DNA from: a virus
Length of the DNA stretch: 64,000 nucleotides
Strand: one strand, 5' to 3'
Virus record (IMG/VR): IMGVR_UViG_3300010368_000009
Span: 37,447 to 101,446 of that record
Shown: positions 2,743 to 36,300 of the stretch, piece by piece
Position numbering within the stretch: position 1 is the first letter of the stretch
Layout of the letters: each line of letters opens with the position of its first letter
Translations under genes and position numbers: made by a program
The notes under the pieces: generated by a model
Told to the model about the DNA's origin: nothing
The model's input: only the letters and a program-made list of their open reading frames with translations
Database searches by the model: none

Positions 2743-2806
2743 AATATTATTTCCTTCTCTCTTATACTTTCTCTTTAATAAGACAATATAAGACGAAGCG
2801 GATATC

Positions 2807-2889
2807 TTAACGAGCAAATGAGTTGCAGTGGATATGGTTTGTCAAAGTATGAGTCTGATTATGATAATCCATTACATCCGGCACGTTAA
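2807..2889 (-). ncRNA. Y RNA-like unit 1 (minimal, 83 nt)
   Basis: RNA 5'-UUAACGUGC[C]GGAUG...GGAUUAUC...CAUUUGCUCGUUAA; bulged-C helix; adjacent to Ro60. Confidence 0.8.
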
Positions 2890-2907
2890 TATTACTATAT
2901 TACTAAT

Positions 2908-3053
2908 ATGGCTTTGTGAGCAAATGTATAGAAAATAGGGTTTAAGCGCTCTACCGCTGAGCTACCAAGCCGCGAACGACCTGAGTTGGATTCGAACCAA
3001 CGACCTCTCCATTACAAGTGGATAACCTATTTTCATCCGGCTCACAAAGCCAT
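2908..3053 (-). ncRNA. Y RNA-like unit 2 (YrlA-type) with circularly permuted tRNA-Thr(UGU) domain
   Basis: Ro stem GAGC[C]GGAUG/CAUUUGCUC, then anticodon arm UCCA-CUUGUAA-UGGA, T-arm GUUGG-UUCGAAU-CCAAC, loop-closed acceptor stem and D-arm GCUC-AGCGGUA-GAGC. Confidence 0.88.
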
Positions 3054-3058
3054 TTTAG

Positions 3059-3205
3059 TAAGACGAGTAAATGAAATGACAAAGGGATAATATACAGTTG
3101 CGTCTACCAATTCCGCCACTCCCCGTTAGATTGGTCGGGGAGACAGGACTTGAACCTGTAATACTCACTGTTCCTTAGATAACCCTAAATCTCCGACACG
3201 TCTTA
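3059..3205 (-). ncRNA. Y RNA-like unit 3 (YrlA-type) with permuted Leu-like tRNA domain
   Basis: Ro stem GUGU[C]GGA/UUUACUC; T-arm ACAGG-UUCAAGU-CCUGU; acceptor CUCCCCG-ACCAAUCUAA-CGGGGAG; D-arm GCGGAAUUGGUAGACGC. Confidence 0.85.
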
Positions 3206-3236
3206 AATCATTTCCTTCTTTGTTCAGTCGTTAGTA

Positions 3237-3305
3237 GTTACGAGCAAATTGTTGAAAATGGGGGTTCATCAACAAAAGATAACCCACTCTCATCCGGCAC
3301 GTAAC
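3237..3305 (-). ncRNA. Y RNA-like unit 4 (minimal, 69 nt)
   Basis: GUUACGUGC[C]GGAUGAGAGUGGGUUAUC...CCCAUUUUCAACAAUUUGCUCGUAAC. Confidence 0.82.
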
Positions 3306-3314
3306 CGCTTTAGT

Positions 3315-3382
3315 ACTGCGAGCAAATTGTTTGAAATGGGGGTTCATCGTTGCAAGATAACCCACTTCATCCGGCCCGCAGT
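3315..3382 (-). ncRNA. Y RNA-like unit 5 (minimal, 68 nt)
   Basis: ACUGCGGGC[C]GGAUGAAGUGGGUUAUC...CCCAUUUCAAACAAUUUGCUCGCAGU; near-paralog of unit 4. Confidence 0.82.
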
Positions 3383-3400
3383 CTTATTGCGATGTGGATA

Positions 3401-3429
3401 TACTTAAGGGTAATAATTCGGGGTGTCAA
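3401..3429 (-). promoter_or_regulatory. putative sigma70 promoter of the Y RNA/Ro60 operon
   Basis: Minus strand TTGACA-N17-TAAGTA about 20 nt upstream of unit 5. Confidence 0.55.
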
Positions 3430-5955: not shown

Positions 5956-7119
5956 ATGGAGTGTGTTATGTCCAAACTAACAGGGGTTGATCCCCGTGCC
6001 GTATATAATGACGGAAAAATCCTAACCGATTCTCTCGGGCCGGATCAAAAGCATGACCTGTTGGTATTCATTGGCCGTTTTCAGCCATTGCATTATGGAC
6101 ACATGCGAGTAATCGATATTGCTCTTACTCGCGCCAAGCAAACATTGATCTTGGTAGGTTCGGCAAATGTCGGACGAACTCTTTACAACACCTTTACATA
6201 TCAAGAACGCTACGCGATGATTGCTTCCCAATATCAGGAAGCGATTGATGATGGCCGTCTTGTGCTTCGTCCACTGGATGATCACACCTACGCTGATGCC
6301 GATTGGCTCGAACAGGTTCAAGATATCGTTGAACACGATGTTCTCAAGAATAAAACTGCAAAGACTATCAGTCTGATTGGTTGTGAGAAAGATCACACCA
6401 GTTATTACCTTGGTCTGTTTCCGCAGTGGGGCAACATTGGTGTTGAATTCAAGGTGCCGTTGAACAGTACTGATGTTCGCAAAGCTGTATTCCTTCAAAA
6501 GAATAGTTATAATCCCGGTCCCGGTTCTGGTCGCATCATTAATGAAGAATACGAGTTTATTCATAAAGCGTGTCCTCCTGAAATCGCACGGTTGCTGTAT
6601 GCCTTTACGATGCGATCTGAGTATGAAGACATCAAAGAAGAATGGGGTTTTATCAACACGTATCGTAACAACCGCCAAAAAGGTAATGAATATCCCGTCA
6701 TCGATCATACGGTTGATGCATGTGTTGTTCAGTCGGGTCACGTGTTGGTTGTTCAACGTCGCTGGCGTCCGGGTAAAGGACTGTTTGCTCTTCCGGGTGG
6801 CTTCCTTAATGAATTTGAACCGGTTGATCATGCCATCCTTCGGGAACTTCGTGAAGAAACTCAAATTGATGTGAGTGATACGGTTCTTCGTGCCGGTTTT
6901 GTGAAACGTGAACAGTTCAGTGATCCACGCCGGTCTGATCGTGGCCGCATCATTACTGAGTGTGGTTTGTTCAAACTTCAAGATCGCGCCAAGCTTCCAA
7001 CGGTTAAGGGTGCCGATGATGCCGCCTGTGCATTCTGGTTGCCATTGAATAAAGTTGATCCAAGTGCATTTTTTGAAGACCATGCATTCATCATTCGCAA
7101 ACTGACAAAAGATTTGTGA
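5956..7119 (+). CDS. nadM: bifunctional NMN adenylyltransferase / Nudix ADP-ribose pyrophosphatase (NadM-Nudix, NatV-like)
   Basis: FIGRFQPLHYGH (HxGH), NSTDVR, Nudix box GGFLNEFEPVDHAILRELREET, FEDH. Confidence 0.93.
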   Translation: MECVMSKLTGVDPRAVYNDGKILTDSLGPDQKHDLLVFIGRFQPLHYGHMRVIDIALTRAKQTLILVGSANVGRTLYNTFTYQERYAMIASQYQEAIDDGRLVLRPLDDHTYADADWLEQVQDIVEHDVLKNKTAKTISLIGCEKDHTSYYLGLFPQWGNIGVEFKVPLNSTDVRKAVFLQKNSYNPGPGSGRIINEEYEFIHKACPPEIARLLYAFTMRSEYEDIKEEWGFINTYRNNRQKGNEYPVIDHTVDACVVQSGHVLVVQRRWRPGKGLFALPGGFLNEFEPVDHAILRELREETQIDVSDTVLRAGFVKREQFSDPRRSDRGRIITECGLFKLQDRAKLPTVKGADDAACAFWLPLNKVDPSAFFEDHAFIIRKLTKDL

Positions 7120-7129
7120 GGAGAACACT

Positions 7130-7291
7130 ATGGAAGATGACACCTATCAAATCATTCAAAAACTGAAAGATATGGTTGATGAAATCGATCTATATGAAAT
7201 TGAAATCGCCGCTGCTCGCGAGCGTATCACACAGAACCGGCTGGTAATCAAAGCATTGAAGGCCGAAACCGAAAAAGAAAAAGGAAATTAA
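7130..7291 (+). CDS. small coiled-coil protein (53 aa, not in ORF track)
   Basis: GAGGAG RBS; MEDDTYQIIQKLKDMVDEIDLYEIEIAAARERI... Confidence 0.6.
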   Translation: MEDDTYQIIQKLKDMVDEIDLYEIEIAAARERITQNRLVIKALKAETEKEKGN

Positions 7292-7295
7292 TATC

Positions 7296-8759
7296 ATGAC
7301 CATCATTGTAAACGTAAATGAAATCGAACGCATTCTTTCCAATCCGATTCTTATGTCAGATTCGTATAAGTTTTCACATTGGAAGCAATACCCACAAAAA
7401 TCTTTGTATGTGAATAGCTACATTGAATCTCGCGGCATGTGTACCGAATTGGTCAACAGTGGCCTCGACAACGAGTTGGTATTCTTTGGTATCCAAGGAT
7501 TTATCAAGCGTTACCTGTCTCGCCAAATCACACCCCAACATATTGATGAAGCTGAAAAATTCTGCAAGAATCATGGTGAACCATTCAATCGTCGTGGCTT
7601 TGAAATAATCGTGAATGATTACAACGGCTATTACCCTGTCAGTATTCAGGCTATTCCAGAAGGAACAGTCATCAGTGCACACAATGTTATGGTTCAAGTA
7701 ATCAATACTGACTCTCGGTTGTACTGGTTGACCTCGTTTCTGGAAACTGCATTGCTTCGCGCCGTGTGGTATCCAGTTTCCGTGGCTACCAAGAGCCGGG
7801 AAATCAAAAAGGTTATTGCCAAATATATGGATGATACGGTTGGCAATCGTGATGGTTTGGAATTCAAACTTCATGATTTCGGTGCCCGTGGTGTTTCTTC
7901 TCAAGAATCGGCCATGATTGGTGGCGCTGCCCATCTGGTGAACTTCATGGGAACTGATACCGTTGAAGCCGCTGTATGGCTCTCTGCACTGTATAGTGAG
8001 CCTATGGCCGGGTTCTCGGTGCCAGCCGCTGAGCATAGCACCACGACGACTTGGGGTGGACCGGAAGGCGAAGAAGCTAGTTTCTTGAATATGCTGGAAC
8101 AATTCCAAGGCAACTACCCGATTATCTCGGTGGTATCTGATAGCTATGACATTTACAATGCGATCACCAATCTTTGGGGTGGCACATTGAAGGAAGCTGT
8201 TATCGCTGCTTCAAAAATGGGTAGCAAGTTGGTCGTTCGTCCAGACAGTGGTGATCCAACAACGGTTCCTATCGATTGTGTTAAACTACTGATGGAAGTC
8301 TTTGGATACACGACTAATGATCTTGGGTATAAGGTATTGCCACCATATATCGGTGTGCTTCAGGGTGATGGTATCAACATCAATTCCATTCGTGCCATTC
8401 TTGAAAACATGAAGCGTGCTGGACTGTCGGTGGAAAACATTGTGTTCGGTATGGGCGGTGAGTTGCTTCAGGGTCATATGCGTGATGATCACAAATTCGC
8501 CATGAAGGCTTCTGAGATTCGGGTTGGTGATGAAGTTCGGGATGTGTTCAAGCAGCCGGTTACGGATGCTATGAAAATTTCAAAGAAGGGTCGATTGGCA
8601 CTTATTGAAACCAGCGGCGTTGGTTCTCGTGGCTACAACACATTGCGTGAATGTAATTTGGGCTACTTGGATAAAAACCTACTGCGGGAAATTTACCGTA
8701 ATGGTGAAATTTTAATCGATGACACCTTTACAACCATTCGGAAGCGTGCCAGTATCTGA
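7296..8759 (+). CDS. nadV: nicotinamide phosphoribosyltransferase (NAMPT/NadV)
   Basis: DSYKFSHWKQYP, LHDFGARG, AAEHS, SVVSDSYD, VRPDSGDP, QGDGI, FGMGG. Confidence 0.95.
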   Translation: MTIIVNVNEIERILSNPILMSDSYKFSHWKQYPQKSLYVNSYIESRGMCTELVNSGLDNELVFFGIQGFIKRYLSRQITPQHIDEAEKFCKNHGEPFNRRGFEIIVNDYNGYYPVSIQAIPEGTVISAHNVMVQVINTDSRLYWLTSFLETALLRAVWYPVSVATKSREIKKVIAKYMDDTVGNRDGLEFKLHDFGARGVSSQESAMIGGAAHLVNFMGTDTVEAAVWLSALYSEPMAGFSVPAAEHSTTTTWGGPEGEEASFLNMLEQFQGNYPIISVVSDSYDIYNAITNLWGGTLKEAVIAASKMGSKLVVRPDSGDPTTVPIDCVKLLMEVFGYTTNDLGYKVLPPYIGVLQGDGININSIRAILENMKRAGLSVENIVFGMGGELLQGHMRDDHKFAMKASEIRVGDEVRDVFKQPVTDAMKISKKGRLALIETSGVGSRGYNTLRECNLGYLDKNLLREIYRNGEILIDDTFTTIRKRASI

Positions 8760-17113: not shown

Positions 17114-18442
17114 ATGATTATGCGTCCACCTATTGTTCAATCTGGCGAAACCATTACCGTTTATGTTGATGGCTTGCCTGAAACGATCAACCGCGACCAT
17201 TCCAATTGGGAACGCGTGAAGCAAGCCATTCGTGATGAACAATGGGATCAACTGGTTCCATTGATGAACATCCCGAAAGGACTGGTTCAATATAGTGAAG
17301 GCAACATCACGATTGTTGATGATGTGTTCCTTTTCCGTGGCATTGAAGTTGCGGATTATCTCGTCACGAAGATCATGGAAATGTTTCATGATAAGATGCC
17401 TATCCAGCCAATGGTTCGGTATTTTGAAAACCTGATGACCAATCCGAACCCGGAAGCACGCAAAGACCAATTCAAATGGTTGGAAGCTGGCAACATGCCG
17501 ATCACCGATGATGGTTATGTCATCGGGTACAAGTATGTTGATGAAAACTACAAGTCTTGTCACAACGGCGTTTGGGAACTGAAGGGTGGCAAGGATTGGA
17601 TTCTCAATACTGGTCGGTATTATGATCACGTTATTGGTTCCATTGTTACCATGCCACGTGAAAAGTGTGATGAAAACAGCCGCGCTACCTGTTCGACTGG
17701 TCTTCACTTCTGTTCGTTCTCGTATCTGAACTCTGGATATACGAAGTCCAAACGAATTGTTCTGGTCAAGATCAATCCGCGTGACATTGTTGCGGTTCCA
17801 GCCGATTATTCATTCGCCAAGGCTCGGTGCTGTGAATATGAAGTTATTACTGAAATCGATGTTCAAGAACACGGTGATATTCTGGCCGGGAAGCGTGTTG
17901 TTCGTGCTTCGCAAAAGATTACCACTCTTGATGATCTGATCTTCTCGCCAACACCGGCAGCTGTCGAAACTGATGCAGAGCGTCATGATCGTATTCTTGA
18001 AGAAGAGGAAGATGAACTTTATGAGGATCAATACAGTCTTCATGAAGATCATGTTGATTTTGATCGTGACGATGACGATGAAGACGTTGATGATGGTGAA
18101 ACTGAAACCTTCTACCATGAAGCAACGGATCAACGGTTCACTGCGGCTGAAGTATTGAACCTGTTGAGCAAATATGGTTCACAAGGTGCGGTTGCCCGTG
18201 AAACTTGTATTCCTCGATCAACGTTTGGTGGATGGTTGAACAAGATTACGGAAGATCGCGAATCATCTTCTGAAGTTCAACTTTCGTTTTTCCACGAAGG
18301 CACCAACCAAACCTTTACGGCACAAGGGGTTCTTGACCTGCTGTCCGCTCATGGTTCACAGGGTGCAGTTGAACGCAACATCGGTATTCCTCGATCCACT
18401 CTTCGTGGATGGTTGAACCGGATAGAAGCAGCCAACGGCTAA
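17114..18442 (+). CDS. rIIB: rIIB-like protein with duplicated C-terminal HTH
   Basis: ITDDGYVIGYK, MPREKCDEN..TCSTGLH, VKINPRDIVAVPADY...KARCCEYEV. Confidence 0.9.
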   Translation: MIMRPPIVQSGETITVYVDGLPETINRDHSNWERVKQAIRDEQWDQLVPLMNIPKGLVQYSEGNITIVDDVFLFRGIEVADYLVTKIMEMFHDKMPIQPMVRYFENLMTNPNPEARKDQFKWLEAGNMPITDDGYVIGYKYVDENYKSCHNGVWELKGGKDWILNTGRYYDHVIGSIVTMPREKCDENSRATCSTGLHFCSFSYLNSGYTKSKRIVLVKINPRDIVAVPADYSFAKARCCEYEVITEIDVQEHGDILAGKRVVRASQKITTLDDLIFSPTPAAVETDAERHDRILEEEEDELYEDQYSLHEDHVDFDRDDDDEDVDDGETETFYHEATDQRFTAAEVLNLLSKYGSQGAVARETCIPRSTFGGWLNKITEDRESSSEVQLSFFHEGTNQTFTAQGVLDLLSAHGSQGAVERNIGIPRSTLRGWLNRIEAANG

Positions 18443-18478
18443 CGTTCCCCCAGACGTTATGTTGACGGTTGCATCGGA

Positions 18479-18511
18479 GAATGGCTCTTGGAAACAAGGG
18501 CCATTCTTTTT
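18479..18511 (+). terminator. intrinsic terminator after rIIB
   Basis: GAATGGCTCTTG-GAAA-CAAGGGCCATTC-TTTTT. Confidence 0.8.
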
Positions 18512-18571
18512 ATGTAAACTTTGAAATATTTTTATTGACTCTATTGGTGATTTGCCTATAAGTAACATGAT

Positions 18572-18647
18572 GCGGATGTAGCTCAGTTGGCAGAGCGACA
18601 GATTTCCAATCTGTATGTCGTCGGTTCGAACCCGTCCATCCGCTCCA
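18572..18647 (+). tRNA. tRNA-Gly(TCC)
   Basis: ACAGA-TT TCC AA-TCTGT anticodon arm; U73 and CCA; promoter TTGACT-N16-TATAAGT upstream. Confidence 0.93.
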
Positions 18648-18653
18648 AGATTT

Positions 18654-18731
18654 GGTGCTGTAGCTCAGTTGGGAGAGCGCCACGCTCATAACGTGGGTCA
18701 GTCATCGGTTCGAGTCCGATCAGCACTACCA
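18654..18731 (+). tRNA. tRNA-CAT (elongator Met or Ile2)
   Basis: CCACG-CT CAT AA-CGTGG anticodon arm; A73 and CCA. Confidence 0.9.
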
Positions 18732-18904
18732 ATTCCATCGAAAGATGGAAACATTAACTTGCGGTTGCTACAGTTCCTCACCTGAAGAGATAGGCCGGTA
18801 GCATTAAATTAAATGGATGCGTTCAGCCGTATTTTATACTTGACTTATAGAAATTCAACCTGTATACAGATAATACAGAAACAACATACAAGGTAATAAA
18901 CATC

Positions 18905-19051
18905 ATGGCAAAGCACGCATCTGGTAATACTCATGTCGTTGGTGTACGTAAGCGCACCAGCATTGGTAACTCCTTCCGTTCGGGCGACAAGTCCAAGAAT
19001 GCGAAAAGCCGTAATGGTTCTCGCTTCACACGTGGTCAAGGTCGTCCGTGA
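18905..19051 (+). CDS. small basic protein ending RGQGRP (48 aa, not in ORF track)
   Basis: MAKHASGNTHVVGVRKRTSIGNSFRSGDKSKNAKSRNGSRFTRGQGRP; AAGG RBS; codons such as CGT, GGT and AAG suggest high expression. Confidence 0.75.
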   Translation: MAKHASGNTHVVGVRKRTSIGNSFRSGDKSKNAKSRNGSRFTRGQGRP

Positions 19052-19070
19052 ATAAAATGCAGTAACGGGG

Positions 19071-19099
19071 TTGACTTTATATAGATCGCCCTGTATAGT
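19071..19099 (+). promoter_or_regulatory. sigma70 promoter of the ncRNA region
   Basis: TTGACT-N17-TATAGT. Confidence 0.75.
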
Positions 19100-19107
19100 A
19101 TAAATCA

Positions 19108-19165
19108 TCGGCGGGGAGTTACTTCCTAGTAACTCCCCGCCGAAAGAATTGAATGCTCTTTGACA
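19108..19165 (+). promoter_or_regulatory. boxB-like hairpin plus boxA antitermination element
   Basis: Perfect 16-bp hairpin at 19108-19143, then TGCTCTTTGACA at 19154-19165, one mismatch from the rrn boxA TGCTCTTTAACA. Confidence 0.65.
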
Positions 19166-19174
19166 TTGTTGTGT

Positions 19175-19748
19175 GAAGCTTAGAACAGCTTCCGTTGGAG
19201 CATCGGGATAGATACTCCTTGTTTAACGAAAATAAACACTGTTGTGCTATTGGCATGGTATGATGGGTTCCGGTGTTTCATCGCAAGTTGTTCTAAAAGT
19301 TTGTTGACACAGATGCATGTGTTGTATTGGTGACCATAACCGGAGTACGGGGCGGAACTTTTACTGATCATTGCGGAATGCCTAGTTTAAATGGCGTGTG
19401 TCAAAGCCGGTGTCCCGTTTAAATCTGGGGATGTGACCGGCCTCGTCATCTTACAAAAGAGAGTCCAAACGTTTTCTAGAAACGACAAAAACTCAGCTCT
19501 GGTGGCCACAGAGAACCGGATATTCTCTTAATAGAGATAGCTTCGGGTGACGAGATATAGTTTTCGTGTACTGACTAGAGTGCACACAAGTTCCCTTCGG
19601 GGAAGGCATCTTATGGTGTCTTAGTGAATGGACTGACAAAAGAGAATATGGGCGGTAACCTGTAGGATCACAAATCAGTCGCCTTTACCGAGGAAAATCG
19701 GTTATTGTCATTCTGTTGGCATCACCACCAGAGTGGCTTACAGTCGGG
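19175..19748 (+). ncRNA. large structured ncRNA (or several adjacent RNAs), family unassigned
   Basis: No credible ORF; nested helices such as TTAGAACAGCTT/AAGTTGTTCTAA, TTGACACA/TGTGTCAA, CTCGTCATC/GGTGACGAG and a CUUCGG tetraloop. Confidence 0.6.
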
Positions 19749-19750
19749 AA

Positions 19751-19881
19751 TTAGTTTAGAGATGGGACGTAGCTCAATATGGTAGAGCTTCTTAATCCCG
19801 GCCACTTTGGAAAACGAACTGGTCCGGTAATGTCAAACGTTGTATGCGGGTTCGATTCCCGTCGCCTGTCATCTAAACTAG
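19751..19881 (+). ncRNA. tRNA-like RNA A (D and T arms, expanded anticodon region, no CCA)
   Basis: TAGCTCAATATGGTAGAGC; GCGGG-TTCGATT-CCCGT; closing TAGTTTAGA/TCTAAACTA. Confidence 0.7.
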
Positions 19882-19911
19882 CTGTTTCGTCCAAATGGAC
19901 AACAATAACTA

Positions 19912-19996
19912 TGCGTGCCGACTTAGACACATAGTCCGTAATACAAATGAGTGTCTGGATACGGTTGTAATGGGTTCGACTCCCGGTAGGCATGCA
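19912..19996 (+). ncRNA. tRNA-like RNA B (T-arm plus pseudoknot)
   Basis: TGCGTGCC/GGCATGCA; TGGG-TTCGACT-CCCG; crossing stems TAGACAC/GTGTCTG and CCGTA/TACGG. Confidence 0.55.
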
Positions 19997-20007
19997 AATG
20001 ATCTTAT

Positions 20008-20129
20008 AGTCGTTGGCTGTATTATCAGAAACAACACAAGGCCGTTGAGAATCCAGCGTGTTGTTTCTGGTAGGTGTCTAGATGGATATAGCTACCATCT
20101 AAGGAGTTCAAGTCTCTTAACGACTGCCA
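20008..20129 (+). ncRNA. tRNA-like RNA C with CCA end, long variable arm and no D-arm
   Basis: AGTCGTT/AACGACT-G-CCA; AGGAG-TTCAAGT-CTCTT; AGATGG/CCATCT; 14-bp central stem. Confidence 0.7.
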
Positions 20130-20131
20130 AT

Positions 20132-20256
20132 AATATCGAGTGAAGCACTGTCATAACATAGTTCGCGCAGAGGCTTATTATTTCGGGCTGGTATACTGAT
20201 GTGGAGTAGCGTAAGCTGACACCGATTAGTAATCAGTCAGGAATATACTCGGTATT
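20132..20256 (+). ncRNA. structured RNA D
   Basis: 11-bp closing stem AATATCGAGTG/TACTCGGTATT; internal ACTGAT/ATCAGT. Confidence 0.45.
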
Positions 20257-20281
20257 TTGTCAAGACAAATATACCTTATGA

Positions 20282-20371
20282 TTATGGGGTTGATCGATAA
20301 TGCTCAGTCTGGTAGAGCTTTCTTACAAAAACTAGGAAGGTCGTTGGTTCAAATCCAACTCGGTCGCATAA
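20282..20371 (+). ncRNA. tRNA-like RNA E (pseudo-tRNA, no CCA)
   Basis: GCTCAGTCTGGTAGAGC D-arm; GTTGG-TTCAAAT-CCAAC T-arm; TGATCGA/TCGGTCG; A-rich non-canonical anticodon loop. Confidence 0.7.
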
Positions 20372-20375
20372 ATAC

Positions 20376-20546
20376 TATCTATCAGTGCACGGGGTATGTG
20401 CACGCCTATATGTGAATCGCCCGTCCATCATCTGGTTACTGAGTAACAAGTAGGTAACAAATGGAGCAACGGGGGCAGTGAAGCAAGCGTTGAAAGTCGT
20501 CGAGGTTATGTAGACGATGGTTGGTTCGAATCCAATCTGATAGATA
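20376..20546 (+). ncRNA. tRNA-like RNA F (171 nt, large insert in place of the anticodon arm)
   Basis: TATCTATCAG/CTGATAGATA; TGCAC-GGGGTAT-GTGCA; TCGTC/GACGA; GTTGG-TTCGAAT-CCAAT. Confidence 0.65.
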
Positions 20547-20679
20547 TAATGGTGGCGTCATCTAGGAGCGGTGAAGTGTGCGTTCCGGGTGTTGCAGGCA
20601 TGCAAACCTATGCGGCAGTCCTTTTCCGAGGGCGAGTCGATTCTAGTCGTTTAACGAGCGACATGGCACCCCATCATTA
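20547..20679 (+). ncRNA. structured RNA G
   Basis: TAATGGTGG/CCATCATTA closing stem; CTAGGA/TTCTAG; GC-rich and non-coding. Confidence 0.45.
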
Positions 20680-20692
20680 AACGAGAAACATA

Positions 20693-21493
20693 ATGTTTTG
20701 GATAGTACAAGAAGATTTATATAACGAATACAATTATGATTCGTTTCTTGATTCGTTGAAAAGAATGAATATTGATCATGTATTGGTCAAGCCAATTCCA
20801 TTTACCAATACACTGGTTGATGAAGATCAAATTCATATCGATGATACCAAACCGATAATCGTATCAGGATCAATGGGATTAGTTCGTGTGGCTCGCCGTA
20901 GAGGTTGGAAGCCCGGATCATTCCTTGATGAAGATTTCGAATTCACTCAATGGCGTGATGGCTTCGGTAAAAAACATTGTATGAATGGATGGGGCAAGGT
21001 CAGTAAATTACGGGATGCATCTTTTTCCGGTAGCGATATATTCGTTCGTCCGACAGCTGATAATAAATCTTTCAACGGAACTATTATGAACCGGGAAGAG
21101 TTTATTTGCTGGCGTGACCATTATGCGGACATCGAACCAACCGATGAATTTCAATTACTCCATGCTGATACAGAAATTATGTTATGTCAGCCTAAAAACA
21201 TTTCGGCTGAATACAGATTCTTTATCGCTGGTGGCCAAATTCTAACCGGAAGCCTGTATTCTAGAAATAGACGCGTCCTTTATCAAGAATGTGTTGATGC
21301 AGGGCCGATAGCATTCATCAATGCAATGATCGCCATATATCAACCAGCGGAAGCATTCGTTCTAGATATAGCTTATATTCATGGTGAGTATAAAATAATT
21401 GAAGTTAATAATTTCAATTCATCTGGTTATTATGCTTGTGATGTTCAGAAAATCATTGACGGGGTTGAACAATTAACTTACAAGTATGAATAA
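20693..21493 (+). CDS. ATP-grasp domain protein (DUF4343/R2K-like)
   Basis: FVRPTADNKSFNG, EYRFFI, FVLDIA..YKIIEVNNFNSSGYY. Confidence 0.8.
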   Translation: MFWIVQEDLYNEYNYDSFLDSLKRMNIDHVLVKPIPFTNTLVDEDQIHIDDTKPIIVSGSMGLVRVARRRGWKPGSFLDEDFEFTQWRDGFGKKHCMNGWGKVSKLRDASFSGSDIFVRPTADNKSFNGTIMNREEFICWRDHYADIEPTDEFQLLHADTEIMLCQPKNISAEYRFFIAGGQILTGSLYSRNRRVLYQECVDAGPIAFINAMIAIYQPAEAFVLDIAYIHGEYKIIEVNNFNSSGYYACDVQKIIDGVEQLTYKYE

Positions 21494-27312: not shown

Positions 27313-30300
27313 ATGCATCGTATTGACAGTGAAGGCTCAATTAACAATCAATTCTCAGAGGGAAATCCGTCTCTTGGTGTTGAAGGAACAAAGGTTACTG
27401 CTGATTTCTTGAATGCTCTTCAAGAAGAATTAGCATATACAATTGAGTCTGCCGGGTTAACCTTGGAAAAAGGTAACCACTCCCAATTAGCAAATGCTAT
27501 TTTGACCCTCGTGGGTGGTGGTGGATCATTTCCAAATTTAGAAACACGTATTACTCAATTGAATTCTTCATATTTGTATGGTGCCAGAAATATATTCCGT
27601 CAAAATGACGAACCACTTGAAAATGTACAGGGTCCATTCTATGATAATGATATATGGATTGAAACAGATCAAAGCCCTGAACGAGTTTGGGTTTGGAATT
27701 CTATAACAGAAACATGGATTGATACTACTAGTGAAGCAAGCGCCCGTGGTATCTTATCCCAACAGAAGCTTCAGGCAATTTCTGACGGTGTTGTTCAGAT
27801 TTTCATACAAACCGATACACCAACTGGTGCTTCTGAGGGTGATCTTTGGTATAATGATCGTGATGACTTGCTATTCACCTATGATGCAGGTGTATGGTTT
27901 ACTGTATATGATGAGTTTTCGAAACGAGTTATCGTTGACGCGATCATCAGAGAAGCAGCGAACACTGCACAGGGTACAGCCGATTCAAAAATTCTCACCT
28001 ACTATCAAACATCGGCACCGGTCGGATTAACCGCACAGAACGATGGTGATATCTGGTTCGATACCAGTGACTCCAATAAAGTATATCGTTATGCACATCC
28101 TACGTGGATCGCCATTTCTGATCTTCGCATTCAAACCGCCCTAGATTATATTTTCCTTCAAGGAGCAATCGCTGACGGAACTATATTCGTTTATTTTTCT
28201 GCGGATGAACCAACCCAAGCTAACCAAGCTGCACTATCTCCACCAAAACAAGCACCATCCGAGGGTGATGTATGGGTTGATATTACCGATGATGGCGGAA
28301 GTCCAAGAAACGATGTTTACTTGTTCAATAATAATGTTTGGGTTCAACAGACTGATCCAGATTTCATTCGACTGCTTCTAAGTTTTGCGAGTGCTCGTGC
28401 AATTTCTGACGGTGCTGTAACCATTTACTTCAGTCCAACTGCACCAGATGACACATTCATTCCGGCACCGGCCTATGGTGATATTTGGTTTGATACATCT
28501 ACTGTTTCTATACCTGATGTGAATGCCGCTGACCCTGCTACCGCTGCTCAAATCAACGTTACCAAATGGGAACAATATAGATATGACGGAACATCATGGG
28601 TAGTGATTGCTGACTTCAAAGTTAAAATCATTGAAGCCAATCTGAAGAGTGAACAATTCGCACGAACCGCAGAAGACACTGCAATCTCTGGTGAAATCAC
28701 CACGGCGGTAACTCGTATTGGTGAAAATGAAGCAACCGTCCAGCAATCATTAGTATCAATCAACGGTATCGCTGGTGCTTATGGTGTTAGAACGAACGTT
28801 AATAATAAAGTGGTTGGTTTTGGTTTCATCACTGATTATGAACGAGAAATTGAATTCACCAACACCGGTTCGTTGGATTTTAATCCGGGTGATGAAGTCT
28901 TCCTTGGCGTTGACTATGCAAATAAAACCTATGCAGCTGTAATTGTATCGGTTGATAACGTTAATGAAACAATGCGAGTCATTTCGGAATCAGGTACATT
29001 TGCTACTGGTGTCACTTTGGCTTCTCGGTATAGATTGCTGGCGAATGCAACTATCGATGCAGGTACATTAAATCCGACGCCGGGTGATTCTGAATTCGAA
29101 ATCATTGTTGATAAGTTTAAAATCACTGATGGAACATCTTCGTTAACCCCATTCAGTATCAGTGGTGGCGTCGTATATGTTGGTGCTCTCGATACGAGTG
29201 TGCCACAAGTACAATACATTGGTGAGTTTGCATCTGATCCAGCAACGACTTATCCAATCAACTCAATTTACAAAAACACCACCAATGGTAACACGTATGT
29301 TTTGGAATATATCACCGGCACATCCGGTCCAAAACAGTGGGCGATCTTCCTAGAACGCGGTACAAACGCACGCTCGTTGGTCATCACCGCTAATGTTCCG
29401 GGTTATATGTTTGATAGCAATGCGGCATCATCTCCAACAAACCCTACTATAACCTTCAATGTACAATATCAGGGCCAAGCATCAGCAATCACAAGTACAG
29501 ATATTGTTGTTACTGATAAAGATGATAATGTGATTGCAGCAACACTTACGAGTACGGTTACGGATGATACCGTGATTTTTGATGCCGGTGGAACAACTCA
29601 TCGTGGATCATTCAAATTTGATATTGCTTATACAGAATTCGCAGCCAATGAATTTCCAATCACCATCACGGTTGATGATGGAACTCTATCTGACACCATG
29701 TTCGTTCCGAGAATTATTGGATCAACCGCCAAACTGATATCACTTAATCCAGATTCATCGGTCTTTCTTTTCGAGGATGATGTAGCAACTGTTCCAGAAA
29801 ATGCGTCTATCCATTTCCGCATCCAGCACCAATCATTGAGTACAGCACCGACAACATCGGAACTTACAATCGTTGATGATGCGGCAACATCATTCTCTTC
29901 TACCAACTTTACATCAGCTGGTAGTGGTTCGGGTGTATCATCGTTTGAATTATTATGGTCTACCGTTTCAGCCGCAGTTTTCCCAATCACGGTCACGATT
30001 GATGACGAAAGTATCAATGATGTCATCGTGGTTAGAAAACTAATCGGTGGTGTTGATGCCGTTGCAGGTTTCTTAACCAATGAATCTCATCTGGTGCCAG
30101 CTGAAGAAGATGGAACCATTGTGGTGGGTGGCCTTGATGATGCCATTGGTACATTTGATGTGTATCGCGGTATCACTAAGCGTAATACAGATACAGCATA
30201 TACTGTATTATCAACAATAGGTTGTTCAGCCACGATTGATGATACTGCTGGTGGAACTGCTGGTAATTATGCTATCACGGCGATGGCCGCCAATAAAGCA

Positions 30301-33300
30301 AGAGCTGTATTCCAAGCCGTATATGATTCGGTCACCATCACAAAAGTAATGAGCCTGACCAAATCATTAGCAGGGGTGGGTGCAAAAGCGCTTTATCTTT
30401 TCTCAGATGCGCAAACCTTTGAATTCACTGGGGATAATCAAGCGAAAGATGGTGGTGCCGTCATTACCTTGTCCACGATTCGTACTGGTGTTTCGGGAAT
30501 TACTTGGACAGCGGTAAACGAGCTTGATGATCCGGTCGCTTTGTCTGGAACTGGTGACGATACTAGAACCTTACCGATTGGTAACTTTGCTGCATCTGAA
30601 TATGTAACAGTCACGGTTGCTGTAACAATTGATACTGTTGAATATAGTGATAAGATCAGAATTGTTAGACTGGTTGATGGATCGAGTACAATTAATGTAG
30701 TTCTTTCAAATGAATCGCATACTTTTTTTGCTGATGAGAATGGTGTCATCAGTGGTGGAGATTACGATAGTGGAAACTCTTTAATATCGGTGTATCGCGG
30801 CACTGAAGTAATTTTATATCAGGGTGCGGCTGGTAATAACAAATTTAGATTTGGTACGATTACTGCTTCTGCTGGTATCACTATTGATGGTGGCGAAACT
30901 GCACCAACCGTTGGTATTTCCGCCATGACCAATTTGTTTGGTTATATTGATGTACCTGTCATCTATAGAAATAATAATGGTGCCGACACAACATATACTA
31001 AACGTATTTCATATGCTAAATCACGCGAAGGTGAATTGGGAAGAAACCTTCAACTGTATGGTACTGGACAGGTGTTTAGATTTGATGGCGATAATATTGC
31101 AATCAATCCTTCTGACACAATTACGATTACCGCCTTCCGTCAACATCTTGATACAGACCCTGTATTCACTGCTCTAAACGATAGTGCTCAATCGGTAACC
31201 TTGACTGGCACTGGTGATTCAAGAGCATTGAGTATTACTGATTTTGGTACATCCGAATTCGTTAAGGTCACCTGTGTTGCAACATATACTGTCAATGCGG
31301 TTGAAGTAGAAATCACTGATACCTTCTCCATCTATAGAATCAAAGGTGCAATCGCTGGTCTAGTTGTTCTTATGACCAATGAAAACCATACCTTCTTTGC
31401 TGGCCCAGACGGAACAATTGATGCTGGACTGTTCGATGATGGTAATTGTACTGTTCGTGTGTTCCGTGGTTCTGAAGAAATCTCATATGATGTTGGTGGC
31501 GGTCTTAATACTTTCAGTTTCGGAACCATTGTTGCCAGCAATGTTATCAAAGATGTAACAGAGACTGCACCCGAAATTGGTGTTAGTTCAATGTCTGGTG
31601 ATGCTGGTTCTCTTACCGTTCCGGTAATCTATAAAGACCCTACCGGTAATGATGAAACCATAACCCGTGTCATCTCTTATTCCAAGGCCAAGGTTGGTGC
31701 ACAGGCACGTGGGTTGCGCATGTCTGCCACATCACAAATCTTTAGATTTGATGGTGAAGGTGTCGCTCTTAATGGTGCTGATGAAATTACCCTAACCACT
31801 CAGAGAACACTCTTGGGTGACAATCCGACATGGACCGCTATCAATCAGGCTGGTGGTGCCGTGGCTCTGTCATCAGTGGATGCAGATACCAAAAAAGTAA
31901 CGATTGCCAACTTTGGTTCATCTGAATGGGTTAGAGTTTCGGCATCGATCACAACTAGTATCGATGGCAACAGTGTCACGTATCGTGATGAGATAACCAT
32001 TGTAAGATTGAAACGTGGTACTGATGCAATTACTGCATTGATTGAAAATGAATCACACATCTTCCCATCAGATGAAAATGGTGTTGTTTCTGATTACACC
32101 AGTGGTGATACAATAGTTCGTGTATTCTTGGGTGATACAGAAAAAACATATGGTACTGGTAATGAAGAATTTCGGTTTGGCACTATAACTCCAACGAATG
32201 TAACCAATGCAAATTTAACTGCTCCTGCGATTGGTGTTTCTGCCATGACAGAAGATACTGGTCGTTTGAGATTACCGATTATCTATCGCGATGTGAATGC
32301 TGTTGATAGAACTGTATATAAAGAAATCACATATGTTAAGTCTCGTGCTGGTGTGGCCGCTCGTAATCTAAGATTATTTGCAACCAAATTGGTTTTTGAA
32401 TTTGATAGCGAAGACTCACCGGTCAATGGAAGTGACAGTATTGTATTCACAGCTGTTGCCACCAATGTATCCAATCTTACATTCGCTGCCGAAGATCAAA
32501 ATGAAGTAGCTGTTGCATTAACCGGATCAGGTAACCAACGCACTCTTGCAATAACAGCATTTGATGATGCACAAAGTGTCAGTGTGACCGCGAGTGGAAC
32601 ATCCATGATCGGTGGTGTTTCGGTCGGCTTCAGTGATACAATCACTATTGTGAGACTACGTGAAGGTGCTGGTGGTGTACAGGTTTCATTAACTAATGAA
32701 TCACATACGTTCTATGCAGATGAAGAAAATGCAGTAATCGGAACAGAGTATGCTGGTGGTAATTCAATAATCAAAGTATATGCTGGCACCACCGAAGTAA
32801 ATTATAATGCTAGTGTTGTTCCGGGTACATGGCGTTTAGGTACGGTAACCCCAACCGATGTCACACGCAACGGAGCATTGGCGTTACCAATTATTGGTAT
32901 CTCGGATTTTGTTAAAGCTAGCAACACCGGTATATTATTATTCGAAGTAATTTATACTGACCTTAATAGTGTTGATAGAACTATACAACGTGCCATCACT
33001 TATTCCAAGTCTAAAGCTGGAACCGATGCTCGTGCCCTGAGATTGATAGCCTCTTCTCAATTATTCAACTTCAATACATCCGGTCAACCTGTTGATAATG
33101 CTGATGAAATCACTCTAAACGCGGTTCGTCAATTTATTGATGGTACAGCGGCATGGACTGCTGTGGATGAGGATAGTAATAATCTTTCATTGACTTCTGG
33201 TGCTAATGGTGACGAGAAGATTTTAAGTATTGCCAACTTTGGTTCTGCTAATCAGGCGAATATTTCTGTTAGTGCTGTGGATTCGTTCACGGGTGAAACT

Positions 33301-36300
33301 TTAGTTGATACCTTAACCATTTATAGACTTAATCAGGGTTCCGAGGGTAAAGACGGAGTAACTGTCTTTATTGGAAATGATAATCATTCATTCCCTGCGG
33401 ACGAGGCTGGGTTGGTGGATGATTATTCTACCGCTAATACGACTGTAGTTGTTTATAGTGGTTCTGTTGCAATCAACTATTCGGCAACGAAGGTGAACAA
33501 CACTTTCCGTTTCGGTACAATGACACCAACCAATGTGACTCGTAATGTTGGCTTGGTTGCCCCTATCATTGGTATTTCGGCAATGTCTGATACTGATGGT
33601 TCGCTTACTGTTCCGGTTATCTTTACGGATAATCAAGGATCAGATTTGACCTTCACCAAGATAATTTCTTATACGAAATCACTTGCAGGAACGAATGTAA
33701 GAAATATTAGACTTCGTGCAACATCTTTTACGTTTGAGTTCGACCAGTTCGGTGACCCGATTGATACCAATCAAATCATAACCTTCTCGTCTCTTAGAAT
33801 AAATGTTCCATCAGCAACGTGGACGGCTGTTGATCAAAATGATGATGCTGTTGCATTCACATCATCACCAGATGCTGACACACGAACATTAGACATTGAT
33901 GACATCGGTTCTGCAACCGAGATAACCGTTAGTGTATCATCTACCTATAACGCTATTGATTACATTGACACTATTCGAGTAGTTAGATTGGATCAAGCTC
34001 GTGATTCTATTACCATCGTTGGAACAAATGAAAACCATAGTTTCTTTGCTGATGAAGGTGGTGTTATTTTAGTAGGTGATTATGCAAGTGGTGACTGTAC
34101 TTTCTCAGTTTACCATGGTACTAGACTAATAACATATCAATCAACTGCGGCTGATGATCGTTGGCGCTTCGGTGTCATAACGGCCAACAGTGTTACTAAA
34201 AATGCGGCTTTAACTGGTGGTGCAACTGGTATTACGGCTATGTCGGCAAATGTCGGCAACTTAACAGTACCAATTGTTTATAGAGATAAAAATGGACAAG
34301 ATACTACCTACACAAAAATTATATCTTACACAAAATCAAGAAACGGGCGCGATGCGAGATGGGTACAACTCGCGGCATCGGAACAAGTATTCAGATTTAC
34401 AGGCGACGACTTACCGCTTGATAATGTTCAAACCGTTTCAATCAATGTAGCTGTAAATCTTGTTGATACTGGTGATGTAGTTGTTACTGCTAAAGATGAA
34501 CTAGGCGGTTCGATAACACTGGGTGGTTCTGGTGTTGCGAGAACTATGACGATTTCACAGTTCGGTAATTCCGAATATGCAGTCGTTGAAGCTACAGCAT
34601 CGATAACGGTTCAGGGTCAAGCCCAAGTTATCAAAGACACCATCACGATTGGTCGTGTGCGGAACGGTTCGGGGGTTGTTCAAGCTCTCCTTACCAATGA
34701 ATCACATTCATTCGCAGCAGATGAAGATGGTGTTGTTTCATCGTATGGCGGTGGCGATACAGATGTTCGTGTCTTCCGTGGTTCCGAAGAAATAAACTAT
34801 CAAGCCACTGCTGCTAATAATAAATTCCGGTTTGGAACTTATATAGTTTCGAATGTTACTAGTAATGGTGGTTTGACCAAACCAGCGGTCGGCATTTCTG
34901 CCATGTCTAGCGATTTTGGCACACTGACCATTCCAATTATCTATCGTGATCCGAATGGTGATGATGTAACAATCAATAAAGTTGTTTCATATTCCAAGTC
35001 GCGTGCTGGTAATAAAGCTCGTTTGATGCGACTTTATGGAACAGGGCAAGTATTCAAATTCAATCAGGATGGTAATCCTGTAAATGGTTCTGATACTATT
35101 ACCCTAAATGCCATTTCTACTAATCTCGGCGTTCCAACGTGGACAGCTGTAGATGAGAATTCAGTCAACCGAAACACTTTGCTATTAACTGGTGCGACCG
35201 ATTATCAGAAAATATTAAACATCGCCAATTTCATACCATATGAAACCATTACAGTGACTGCATCAGCGACTCATGACGCTGTAAATTATTCTGATCAATT
35301 CACTGTTTATAAGGTAGATGAAGGTGCCAGTAATATTGTTGTGGCTCTGTCGAACGAAGCTCATATATTTGGTGCTGATGAGGAAGGGGTTGTTTCTGAT
35401 TATGACAGTGGCGATTCGGTAATCCGTGTCTTCCGTGGTGCTACTGAAGTTTCATATAATGCCGGTGGTGCAGATGATAGTTTCTTGGTTAATAATTTTG
35501 TTGCGACCGACACAACACGCGATGGTGCTCTAGCCTTACCAAGTGTCGGTATTTCTGCCATGTCAGAAGATGCTGGTACGCTTTCATTCGACGTTGTTTA
35601 TACTGATTCAGTGGGTTCAACCGGACCAACCCAAACTAAGACTATTTCATATTCCAAAGCTCGTGCTGGTGTTAATGCTAGAGCAATTCGTTTGTTCTCT
35701 TCATCAATGCAATTCAACTTTGATGCTGGTGACAGTCCACTCAACGGCAGTGATTCAATTGCGTTCGATGCTATCAAGTCCTTCTTACCGGGAACGGTCA
35801 CATGGACTGCTAAAGATCAAACAGCCGGTAATATTACATTAACCGGTACTGGTAATAGTCGTGCTTTATCTGTCACCAATTTTGGTTCATCTACATATGT
35901 TGATGTCAAAGCGAGTGTATCGGATACCGTTAATACGATAACCACTGTTTATGAAGATCAAATCCGCGTTGTGAGGGTCCGTGACGGTGCTTCTGGTTCA
36001 ATTGGTGCCGATGCCCTACAAGTGTTCCTGACGAACCCACAGACGGCCTTTGCGTTGGATGGTGATGGCAAAATGGTTGAGAGTTACCTAATAGGTAACA
36101 CCGATGTTGAAGTTTATCTTGGAACAACCGCTGTATCTTATTCGGGAACCACCACAGCCAACACGTGGAGATATGGAACCTTTACGGAAACCAATGTCAA
36201 AAAATATCAATCGTCTGGTACGGTAGGTATTAGTGACATGTTCGCTGATCAGGGTTCTTTGTCTGTTCAAATTATATATAGAACAACCGATGCTCAAGAT

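What the first reader, a model, noticed from the sequence alone, without database searches (positions are those of the whole stretch)
19175..19748. Candidate large ornate ncRNA (~570 nt)
Seen: no credible ORF in an otherwise densely coding genome. Consecutive multi-helix domains occur at about 19180-19296, 19305-19403, 19406-19441, 19442-19554 and 19565-19620, with G-U-rich pairing and a CUUCGG tetraloop, which points to RNA-level structure. Established: large phage ncRNAs such as GOLLD and ROOL often lie near tRNA genes. I cannot assign it to either, so it may be a new class.
Basis: partly seen in the sequence, partly recalled or inferred. Interest (0 to 1): 0.75.

Follow-up and report, generated by a model that had tools for sequence, protein, structure and literature searches.

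The report
Conserved cloverleaf RNA in phage operon
This 570-base stretch of a giant phage is real non-coding RNA at the head of an operon built like a ribosomal-RNA operon, but only a ~115-base cloverleaf-shaped piece is conserved in the one related phage, so it looks like a chain of small folded RNAs (one a new conserved motif), not one large ornate RNA.

Summary
Window 19175-19748 lies in a 101-kb fragment of an uncultured jumbo phage. It is free of ORFs under four genetic codes and matches no Rfam 15 family, including GOLLD, ROOL, tRNA, tmRNA and Y RNA.

It follows a sigma-70-type promoter, a 16-bp hairpin and an 18-nt boxA. That boxA is identical to the boxA of alphaproteobacterial rRNA leaders. 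The stretch is therefore the 5' third of a 1.6-kb untranslated operon that continues into tRNA look-alikes.

Stability against shuffles is uneven: D1 z -5.9, D4 -3.7, D5 -3.8, D3 -2.9, D6 -1.9, D2 -0.4.

Only one relative could be reached, a complete 335-kb phage, G001. It has the same leader in front of about 3 kb of non-coding DNA.

- D4 (19442-19554) is clearly conserved there: covariance-model hit at 32 bits, E 1e-7; the same four-way junction; 10-16 compensatory pairs; structural-alignment z 6.5.
- D1, a 28-bp rod just after boxA, has a structural counterpart in G001.
- D2, D3, D5 and D6 show no demonstrable conservation.

Verdict: a polycistronic chain of small structured RNAs that includes one new conserved cloverleaf motif. 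A single ornate RNA is not supported. Function is unknown, and the comparison rests on two genomes.

The parts
19071..19099 (+). Sigma-70-type promoter (TTGACT, 17 nt, TATAGT) that would start the transcript near 19106
   Evidence: Promoter scan, 10 of 12 matches, the best in 18400-21000. It is the only TTGACT-N15-18-TATANT site in the 64-kb window. G001 has a similar promoter in front of its boxA.
19108..19143 (+). Perfect 16-bp hairpin with a 4-nt loop, in the position of boxB in an rRNA leader
   Evidence: Inverted repeat I2, 100% complementary; seen again in the fold. Alphaproteobacterial rrn leaders also carry a GC-rich hairpin just before boxA.
19154..19171 (+). boxA, 18 nt (TGCTCTTTGACATTGTTG)
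   Evidence: Identical in G001. The exact 18-mer occurs in more than 120 genome contigs, most of them Alphaproteobacteria and many at contig ends. It lies about 135-165 nt upstream of 16S rRNA in L245 and L256. The 17-mer with a promoter precedes tRNA arrays in many other phage contigs.
19180..19296 (+). D1: a 28-bp rod (12 bp, 1x1 loop, 2 bp, 1x1 loop, 14 bp with 5 G-U) capped by two small hairpins. Candidate leader-trailer-type helix and RNase III target.
   Evidence: z -5.9, 0 of 200 shuffles; the - strand scores -4.1. G001 has a 27-bp rod of the same build starting 13 nt after boxA (L002 7568-7765, z -6.4). Structural alignment of the two gives z 4.7. No sequence-level or covariance-model match.
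19304..19404 (+). D2: predicted domain with no statistical support. Best treated as a linker.
   Evidence: z -0.4, 71 of 200 shuffles fold as well. No conserved consensus structure with G001; structural alignment z 1.45. Three collinear 9-10-mers shared with G001 are the only hint of homology.
19406..19441 (+). D3: 36-nt hairpin with an internal loop
   Evidence: z -2.9, 2 of 200 shuffles. Not demonstrably conserved (z -0.5 to 1.1).
19442..19554 (+). D4: conserved four-way junction with cloverleaf topology. P1 19442-19449/19547-19554. P2 19461-19464/19491-19494, with inner hairpin 19470-19475/19479-19484. P3 19497-19501/19509-19513, with 7-nt loop GUGGCCA. P4 19516-19520/19542-19546, with inner hairpin 19524-19528/19533-19537.
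   Evidence: z -3.7. A single-sequence covariance model hits G001 at L002 8162-8282 on the + strand only: 32.2 bits, E 1.2e-7, full length. On the fitted alignment 96.8% of cells pair and 10 pairs changed on both sides, against 0-2 in slid controls. An independent structural alignment gives 33 shared pairs, 16 compensatory, z 6.3-6.5. The G001 copy folds on its own into the same topology (z -3.65, MFE frequency 0.37). One copy per genome.
19566..19622 (+). D5: three short hairpins, the middle one with the C(UUCG)G tetraloop at 19595-19600
   Evidence: z -3.8 on the + strand against -1.1 on the - strand. Not demonstrably conserved (z 1.2).
19623..19750 (+). D6: three hairpins, weakly supported. 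It runs up to the extended acceptor-like stem of the first tRNA look-alike (19751-19881).
   Evidence: z -1.9, 5 of 200 shuffles. D5+D6 against the collinear G001 stretch gives z 0.18.

Best explanation
19175-19748 is the 5'-proximal, non-tRNA part of a polycistronic stable-RNA operon of a jumbo phage whose host is probably an alphaproteobacterium.

Shown. A strong promoter, a hairpin and an exact copy of the alphaproteobacterial rRNA-leader boxA precede 1.6 kb without ORFs. The first 600 nt fold into successive self-closed domains on the + strand. One of them, D4, is a 113-nt cloverleaf-topology four-way junction that is kept in the sister phage through many compensatory changes. D1, a 28-bp rod starting 9 nt after boxA, has a structural counterpart there.

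Inferred. boxA recruits the host NusB/NusE antitermination complex, so that RNA polymerase resists Rho on this untranslated transcript, as in rRNA operons. The complex holds the 5' strand of the D1 rod until its 3' strand appears, as with a leader-trailer helix. RNase III cuts the rod. RNase P, Z and E cut at the tRNA look-alikes downstream. Each domain-closing helix brings the two ends of a module together, so the precursor is cut into separate small RNAs. D4 is the functional RNA of this stretch. Its conserved junction bases (CAG, AA, GAACCG) and its GGCC-containing loop are the likely contact surface for a protein or another RNA. The remaining pieces (D2, D3, D5, D6) are lineage-specific modules or spacers.
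For: Non-coding. Leader. The same boxA heads tRNA arrays in many other phage contigs, so a boxA-led stable-RNA operon is a recurring phage design. Strand; the model R2 hits only the + strand of G001. D4 conservation and covariation. D1 counterpart. Flanks not conserved. The operon is conserved as a unit while its place has moved: it lies upstream of the ATP-grasp gene here and downstream of it in G001. A truly conserved module elsewhere in the non-coding stretch (18756-18827) is picked up by plain blastn and nhmmer. So the failure of those sequence searches to align D2, D3, D5 and D6 counts against close conservation of those parts. Even D4 reached only E 0.014 with nhmmer.
Against: There are no expression data; the promoter, the Nus recruitment and every processing step are inferred. 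Only two genomes are available, so each covarying pair rests on one comparison. The alignment A10 was fitted to the structure derived from the window; the independent aligner and the independent fold of the G001 copy reduce this concern but do not remove it. The shuffle control for D1 mostly shows that both RNAs have a long rod, not that the rods are homologous: sequence similarity of the strands is not significant and the D1 model finds nothing. D3 and D5 are more stable than shuffles and may be functional although not conserved. Function is unknown.
Confidence: 0.55

Rival explanations
1. One large ornate RNA of about 570-600 nt. [quoted passage not shown]
For: Whole-stretch fold z -2.9. It lies in a phage next to tRNA genes, like GOLLD and ROOL (10.1101/2024.12.08.627333). 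The D4 loop holds a GGCC palindrome (UGGCCA here) that could form a self-kissing contact. Three collinear 9-10-mers upstream of D4 are shared with G001.
Against: No Rfam hit. No supported long-range helix. D2 is no more stable than chance. The flanks score like shuffled sequence against G001. In G001 a tRNA look-alike and 330 extra nt lie between the leader and D4.
Confidence: 0.12
2. D4 is a much-altered tRNA derivative, in which long hairpins replace the D loop and the T loop. It would then be one more member of the tRNA look-alike array that follows, acting as a decoy or processing signal for tRNA-binding enzymes.
For: Helix lengths of 8, 4, 5 and 5 bp in tRNA order, a 7-nt loop on the third arm with U at its second position, 2-nt junctions, and no spacer between P4 and P1. 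It sits in an operon of tRNA look-alikes under a leader that heads true tRNA arrays in other phages.
Against: No match to the tRNA model even at E 10 on a 151-nt search. ARAGORN finds nothing. There is no T-loop or D-loop motif and no CCA. An 8-11-nt junction stands where tRNA has 2 nt. The third-arm loop is 9 nt in G001, with A before GGC.
Confidence: 0.18
3. The stretch is a long transcribed leader or spacer with no RNA product of its own. Its hairpins only serve folding, nuclease protection or processing of the downstream tRNA look-alikes, and D4 is a conserved processing or protein-loading site acting in cis.
For: Most of the stretch is not conserved. rRNA and tRNA operons have structured spacers. 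D1 looks like a processing stem.
Against: In other phages boxA lies only 20-120 nt before the first tRNA, so 600 nt is not needed for a leader. D4 keeps four helices and its junction bases, which is more than a cleavage site needs. Its distance to boxA and to the next module differs between the two phages.
Confidence: 0.15

Closest known systems
GOLLD (RF01998) and ROOL (RF03087), large ornate phage RNAs
   Same: Phage-encoded, near tRNA genes, no ORF, function unknown. The stretch is about the size of ROOL as I recall it (~580 nt, from memory). A conserved core with variable flanks would resemble GOLLD.
   Different: No match to either model, even at E 10. No pseudoknots or long-range helices are supported. 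Only 113 nt are conserved. The stretch sits inside a polycistronic operon with an rRNA-type leader.
Small stable RNAs in the tRNA gene clusters of phages T4 and T5 (T4 species 1 and 2 RNAs; T5 tRNA-like RNAs).
   Same: Non-tRNA or tRNA-like stable RNAs co-transcribed with tRNA-type units in a phage operon and released by processing; function unknown.
   Different: No sequence or model comparison was made. Here no true tRNA is in the operon, and the operon has an rRNA-type boxA leader.
Bacterial rRNA operon 5' architecture: boxB, boxA, and the leader-trailer helix cut by RNase III (PMC10250234; PMC5725501)
   Same: A hairpin followed by a boxA identical to the alphaproteobacterial rrn boxA. A long helix then starts about 10 nt after boxA and encloses a cargo (D1).
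   Different: The cargo is 60 nt (140 nt in G001), not a 16S rRNA. The helix closes locally. Several more RNAs follow it.
tRNA
   Same: D4 has cloverleaf topology with arm lengths of 8, 4, 5 and 5 bp and a 7-nt loop on the third arm.
   Different: No D-loop or T-loop motifs, no CCA, a long P1/P2 junction, and no hit with the tRNA covariance model or ARAGORN.

Membership tests
GOLLD (Rfam RF01998) | Match to the family covariance model | tested here: not met
   No hit at gathering score or at E up to 10 with lax filters.
GOLLD (Rfam RF01998) | Phage or prophage location near tRNA genes | tested here: met
   Jumbo-phage record. tRNA-Gly and tRNA-Met lie at 18572-18731, and tRNA look-alikes start at 19751.
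GOLLD (Rfam RF01998) | Length often above 800 nt, with a universally conserved 3' region | tested here: not met
   The stretch is 570 nt, and the 3' part (D5, D6) is not conserved in G001 (z 0.18).
ROOL (Rfam RF03087) | Match to the family covariance model | tested here: not met
   No hit.
ROOL (Rfam RF03087) | Complex fold with several pseudoknots conserved across homologues | tested here: inconclusive
   No pseudoknot search was run. Nested long-range helices of 9-10 bp are at chance level. Two genomes are too few to judge.
tRNA (RF00005) | Cloverleaf with four helices in the right order and of the right lengths | tested here: met
   D4 has P1 8 bp, P2 4 bp, P3 5 bp with a 7-nt loop, and P4 5 bp.
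tRNA (RF00005) | Covariance-model or ARAGORN match, T loop, D loop, 3' CCA or discriminator base | tested here: not met
   No tRNA hit in 19175-19748 at E up to 10. ARAGORN finds none. No GTTCRANYC motif and no CCA after P1.
rRNA-type antitermination leader (boxB-boxA) | boxA sequence as in host rRNA leaders, downstream of a promoter and a hairpin | tested here: met
   The 18-mer is identical to the one upstream of 16S rRNA in two alphaproteobacterial genomes and occurs in more than 120 contigs. Promoter and hairpin.
rRNA-type antitermination leader (boxB-boxA) | Binding of NusB/NusE and resistance to Rho | not testable with these tools
   This needs biochemistry or genetics.
Y RNA / YrlA (RF00019, RF02553) | Model match and a Ro60-binding helix, next to the Ro60 gene | tested here: not met
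   The phage encodes Ro60. Y-RNA-like hits lie only next to that gene, at 2807-3383 on the - strand. There are none in 18700-20750.

The most novel reading that the evidence does not exclude
D4 is the founding member of a new class of phage structured RNA. It would be a ~115-nt expanded cloverleaf made from an rRNA-style, Nus-protected operon, working in trans. It could act as a mimic or decoy for a tRNA- or ribosome-binding factor, or as the conserved core of a larger self-assembling RNA that pairs through its GGCC loop. If so, phage stable-RNA operons carry functional RNAs beyond tRNAs.
Probability: 0.3. Interest if true: 0.7.

Novelty: new variant of a known kind. Interest (0 to 1): 0.5.

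Why it matters
Giant phages carry many tRNA genes and a few enigmatic large RNAs, but little is known about other RNAs they make.

Here a phage has copied the host's rRNA-operon leader exactly. This device keeps long untranslated transcripts alive and helps them fold. The leader drives a chain of folded RNAs that are not tRNAs.

One of them, D4, is kept by selection on its base pairs in a sister phage whose neutral sites are probably saturated (neighbouring proteins are 44-69% identical). That gives a short, well-defined RNA of 113 nt, with four helices and conserved junction bases, that can be synthesised, probed, pulled down and deleted.

The same boxA also turned up in front of tRNA arrays in many unrelated phage contigs. 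This suggests that hijacking Nus-factor antitermination for stable-RNA operons is common in phages and under-described.

Tried and rejected
**Searches for homologues that found nothing**
- blastn of 18730-20700 against 50,697 phage records: no match.
- The search for related loci in IMG/VR with the 442-aa protein, the ATP-grasp protein, the HATPase protein and their alignments: only G001.
- Metagenome scan with the ATP-grasp alignment: only distant relatives (55% identity or less) with no similar non-coding DNA.
- A 25-nt pattern from a conserved neighbouring module: only G001.
So I could not fetch the contigs that encode the identical ATP-grasp protein (P0001, 3 contigs) or the 62%-identical one (P0003, on a 7.7-kb contig).

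**A false negative from a tool filter**
- The genome search with the single-sequence models R1 and R2 reported nothing in G001.
- For D4 (R2) this came from the tool's first-look filter: cmsearch with filters off found it.
- D1 (R1) stayed negative with filters off.

**The two-sequence D4 model (R3)**
- No hits in 100 boxA-bearing viral loci.
- No hits in Atu_ph07, Phosso or SCTP-2.
- No hits in 151 sampled alphaproteobacterial genomes.

**Ideas rejected**
- Recoded or hidden ORFs.
- Pseudogene remnants.
- Tandem or CRISPR-like repeats.
- Y RNAs for the phage's Ro60.
- A functional link between the 48-aa basic protein and the RNAs: its many homologues sit in ordinary coding operons.

**Tests with no significant result**
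- RNAalifold on a MAFFT alignment of D2/D3.
- Sequence-only scans of the D1 strands.
- mafft-qinsi was not usable, so I wrote a Sankoff-type aligner.

Full report
**Where it is**

The window is bases 37447-101446 of a 101-kb IMG/VR virus record rated about 30% complete. The baseplate wedge protein is 35% identical to those of Agrobacterium phage Atu_ph07, Sinorhizobium phage Phosso and the Rak2/GAP32 group. This is therefore a jumbo myovirus. The window is densely coding, except for 18732-20692, which lies between tRNA-Gly/tRNA-Met and an ATP-grasp gene. That gap holds one conserved 48-aa basic ORF (18905-19051) and otherwise nothing longer than 63 aa.

**Checking the observation**

- Coding. 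19175-19748 has no credible ORF in table 11 or with TAG, TGA or TAA recoded. The short ORFs hit no Pfam or PHROG family. tblastx against the related locus finds only the 48-aa gene.
- Domains.
- Strand. The + strand folds at -199.7 kcal/mol and the - strand at -154.5.
- Stability per domain, 200 shuffles: D1 -5.9, D2 -0.4, D3 -2.9, D4 -3.7, D5 -3.8, D6 -1.9. On the - strand D1, D4 and D5 are clearly weaker, D2 and D6 much the same, and D3 marginally stronger (-3.1 against -2.9).
- Tetraloop. The C(UUCG)G tetraloop is at 19595-19600.
- Summary. Long-range helices of 9-10 bp are at chance level.

**Known families**

Rfam 15 gives only tRNAs in the window at gathering score. It gives nothing in 19175-19748 at E up to 10. 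That rules out a detectable GOLLD, ROOL, RNase P RNA, tmRNA, intron, riboswitch or Y RNA. ARAGORN finds no tmRNA. There are no tandem or CRISPR-like repeats.

**Context: an rRNA-style leader**

Just upstream lie three elements:
- the best promoter match of the region, 19071-19099, 10 of 12, which is the only site of its type in the window;
- a perfect 16-bp hairpin, 19108-19143;
- the 18-mer TGCTCTTTGACATTGTTG, 19154-19171.

This 18-mer is identical in the sister phage. It occurs in more than 120 genome contigs, nearly all Alphaproteobacteria and often at contig ends. It lies 135-165 nt upstream of 16S rRNA in the two genomes I checked, preceded by a GC-rich hairpin. It is therefore the alphaproteobacterial rrn boxA, and the host is probably an alphaproteobacterium.

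Among phage contigs fetched with the first 15 nt, many carry the 17-mer behind a promoter and directly in front of tRNA arrays: L017, L058, L086, L097, L111, L125, L046 and L102. A boxA-led stable-RNA operon is thus a recurring phage design. In those phages the first tRNA follows within 20-120 nt. Here 600 nt of non-tRNA RNA come first.

**The one relative**

Every protein-based search of IMG/VR returned a single relative, G001 (IMGVR_UViG_3300031957_002643; 335,552 bp with terminal repeats, complete). Its neighbouring proteins are 44-69% identical, so its neutral sites are probably saturated.

G001 has the same 48-aa gene, promoter and boxA, followed by about 3.1 kb without ORFs. This unit lies downstream of the ATP-grasp gene in G001 and upstream of it here. 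Rfam finds nothing in it. blastn aligns boxA and a 72-nt module that lies outside my stretch (18756-18827 with L002 9834-9899), but nothing in 19175-19748.

**D4 is conserved**

- nhmmer weakly aligned 19442-19561 with L002 8157-8289 (E 0.014). This is collinear with three shared 9-10-mers further upstream.
- A covariance model built from the window's D4 alone, run with filters off, hits L002 8162-8282 on the + strand over its full length: 32.2 bits, E 1.2e-7. The next hit scores 6.7 bits.
- On the model-fitted alignment, 96.8% of cells pair and 10 pairs changed on both sides, against 0-2 when partners are slid.
- My own Sankoff-type aligner uses base-pair probabilities of each sequence separately. 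It gives 33 shared pairs, 16 of them compensatory, and a score 6.3-6.5 sd above 20-40 dinucleotide shuffles.
- A scan of D4 along G001 peaks at the true site (z 4.1).
- The G001 copy folds by itself into the same four-way junction (z -3.65, MFE frequency 0.37).
- Conserved unpaired bases are CAG between P2 and P3, GGCCA(C) in the P3 loop, and GAACCG at P3/P4.
- G-U pairs in both copies, and the + strand-only hit, fix the strand.
- The family is single-copy in both phages. It was not found in 100 other boxA-bearing viral loci, in three cultured relatives, or in 151 sampled alphaproteobacterial genomes.
- Neither copy resembles any Rfam family.

**D1**

D1 is a 28-bp rod (12 bp, 1x1 loop, 2 bp, 1x1 loop, 14 bp) starting 9 nt after boxA. 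G001 has a 27-bp rod (16, 1x1, 3, 1x1, 8) starting 13 nt after boxA. It encloses 140 nt, against 60 nt here (z -6.4). The structural alignment gives z 4.7. The strands are not significantly similar in sequence, and the D1 model finds nothing. I therefore call it a conserved architecture; homology is not proven.

**The rest**

D2+D3 (z 1.45), D3 (-0.5 to 1.1), D5 (1.2) and D5+D6 (0.18) score like shuffled partners. RNAalifold finds no consensus structure for D2/D3.

**Interpretation**

The stretch is the head of a Nus-protected polycistronic RNA. It is a chain of self-closed modules, not one fold.
- D1 is best read as a small leader-trailer-type helix and a likely RNase III site. This is by analogy with rRNA operons (PMC10250234) and is an inference.
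- D4 is a conserved small RNA with cloverleaf topology and unknown function.
- The remaining pieces are lineage-specific.
- The reading as a single ornate RNA keeps some probability, because GOLLD also has a variable half and only two genomes exist.
- A tRNA origin for D4 is possible on topology alone, but fails every tRNA test I could run.

**Limits**

- There are no expression data.
- Only two genomes could be compared.
- E-values from the short-calibrated models are rough.
- The genome search missed the D4 hit, so its negative results are weak evidence.

Noticed in passing
window 1111-3429 (- strand): A Ro60/Rsr gene (TROVE plus vWA_Ro60). Directly upstream of it are weak hits to YrlA, a tRNA-like element and nematode sbRNA (a Y RNA homologue). 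Other follow-ups of this scan already cover this locus.
   Followed up: partly
window 18756-18827; L002 9834-9899: A ~72-nt module just after tRNA-Met is 74% identical to a module inside the G001 non-coding operon (nhmmer E 2e-7). By eye its closing helix changes by compensatory substitutions (CGGTTG/CAGCCG here against a 14-bp helix in G001). In this phage it lies outside the boxA-led operon.
   Followed up: partly
window 18905-19051; loci L150-L229: The 48-aa basic protein (conserved KRTSIGNS and RGQGRP motifs) belongs to a family with more than 130 members on small viral contigs of 4-20 kb. There it sits inside tight coding operons. No Pfam or PHROG family matches it.
   Followed up: partly
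loci L017, L018, L028, L051, L058, L086, L091, L097, L102, L111, L125, L046: The 17-mer boxA TGCTCTTTGACATTGTT, usually behind a TTGAC-type promoter, precedes or sits inside tRNA arrays of up to 22 genes in many unrelated phage contigs. In L011 it precedes protein-coding genes. Phage use of the host rRNA boxA seems widespread.
   Followed up: partly
L002 7919-7995: G001 has a tRNA look-alike (D arm and T arm present, not called by ARAGORN) between its leader domains and its D4 copy. The window has none there.
   Followed up: no
window 27313-40881: A single 4522-aa ORF. Atu_ph07 and Phosso have comparably large virion structural protein genes next to their baseplate wedge genes.
   Followed up: no
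window 5956-8759: NAD salvage genes: a cytidylyltransferase-like/NUDIX fusion protein and a NAMPT/NAPRTase-family protein.
   Followed up: no
tool behaviour: the genome search with an RNA model missed a 32-bit full-length hit that cmsearch with filters off found. Its negative RNA results need a filters-off check.
   Followed up: yes
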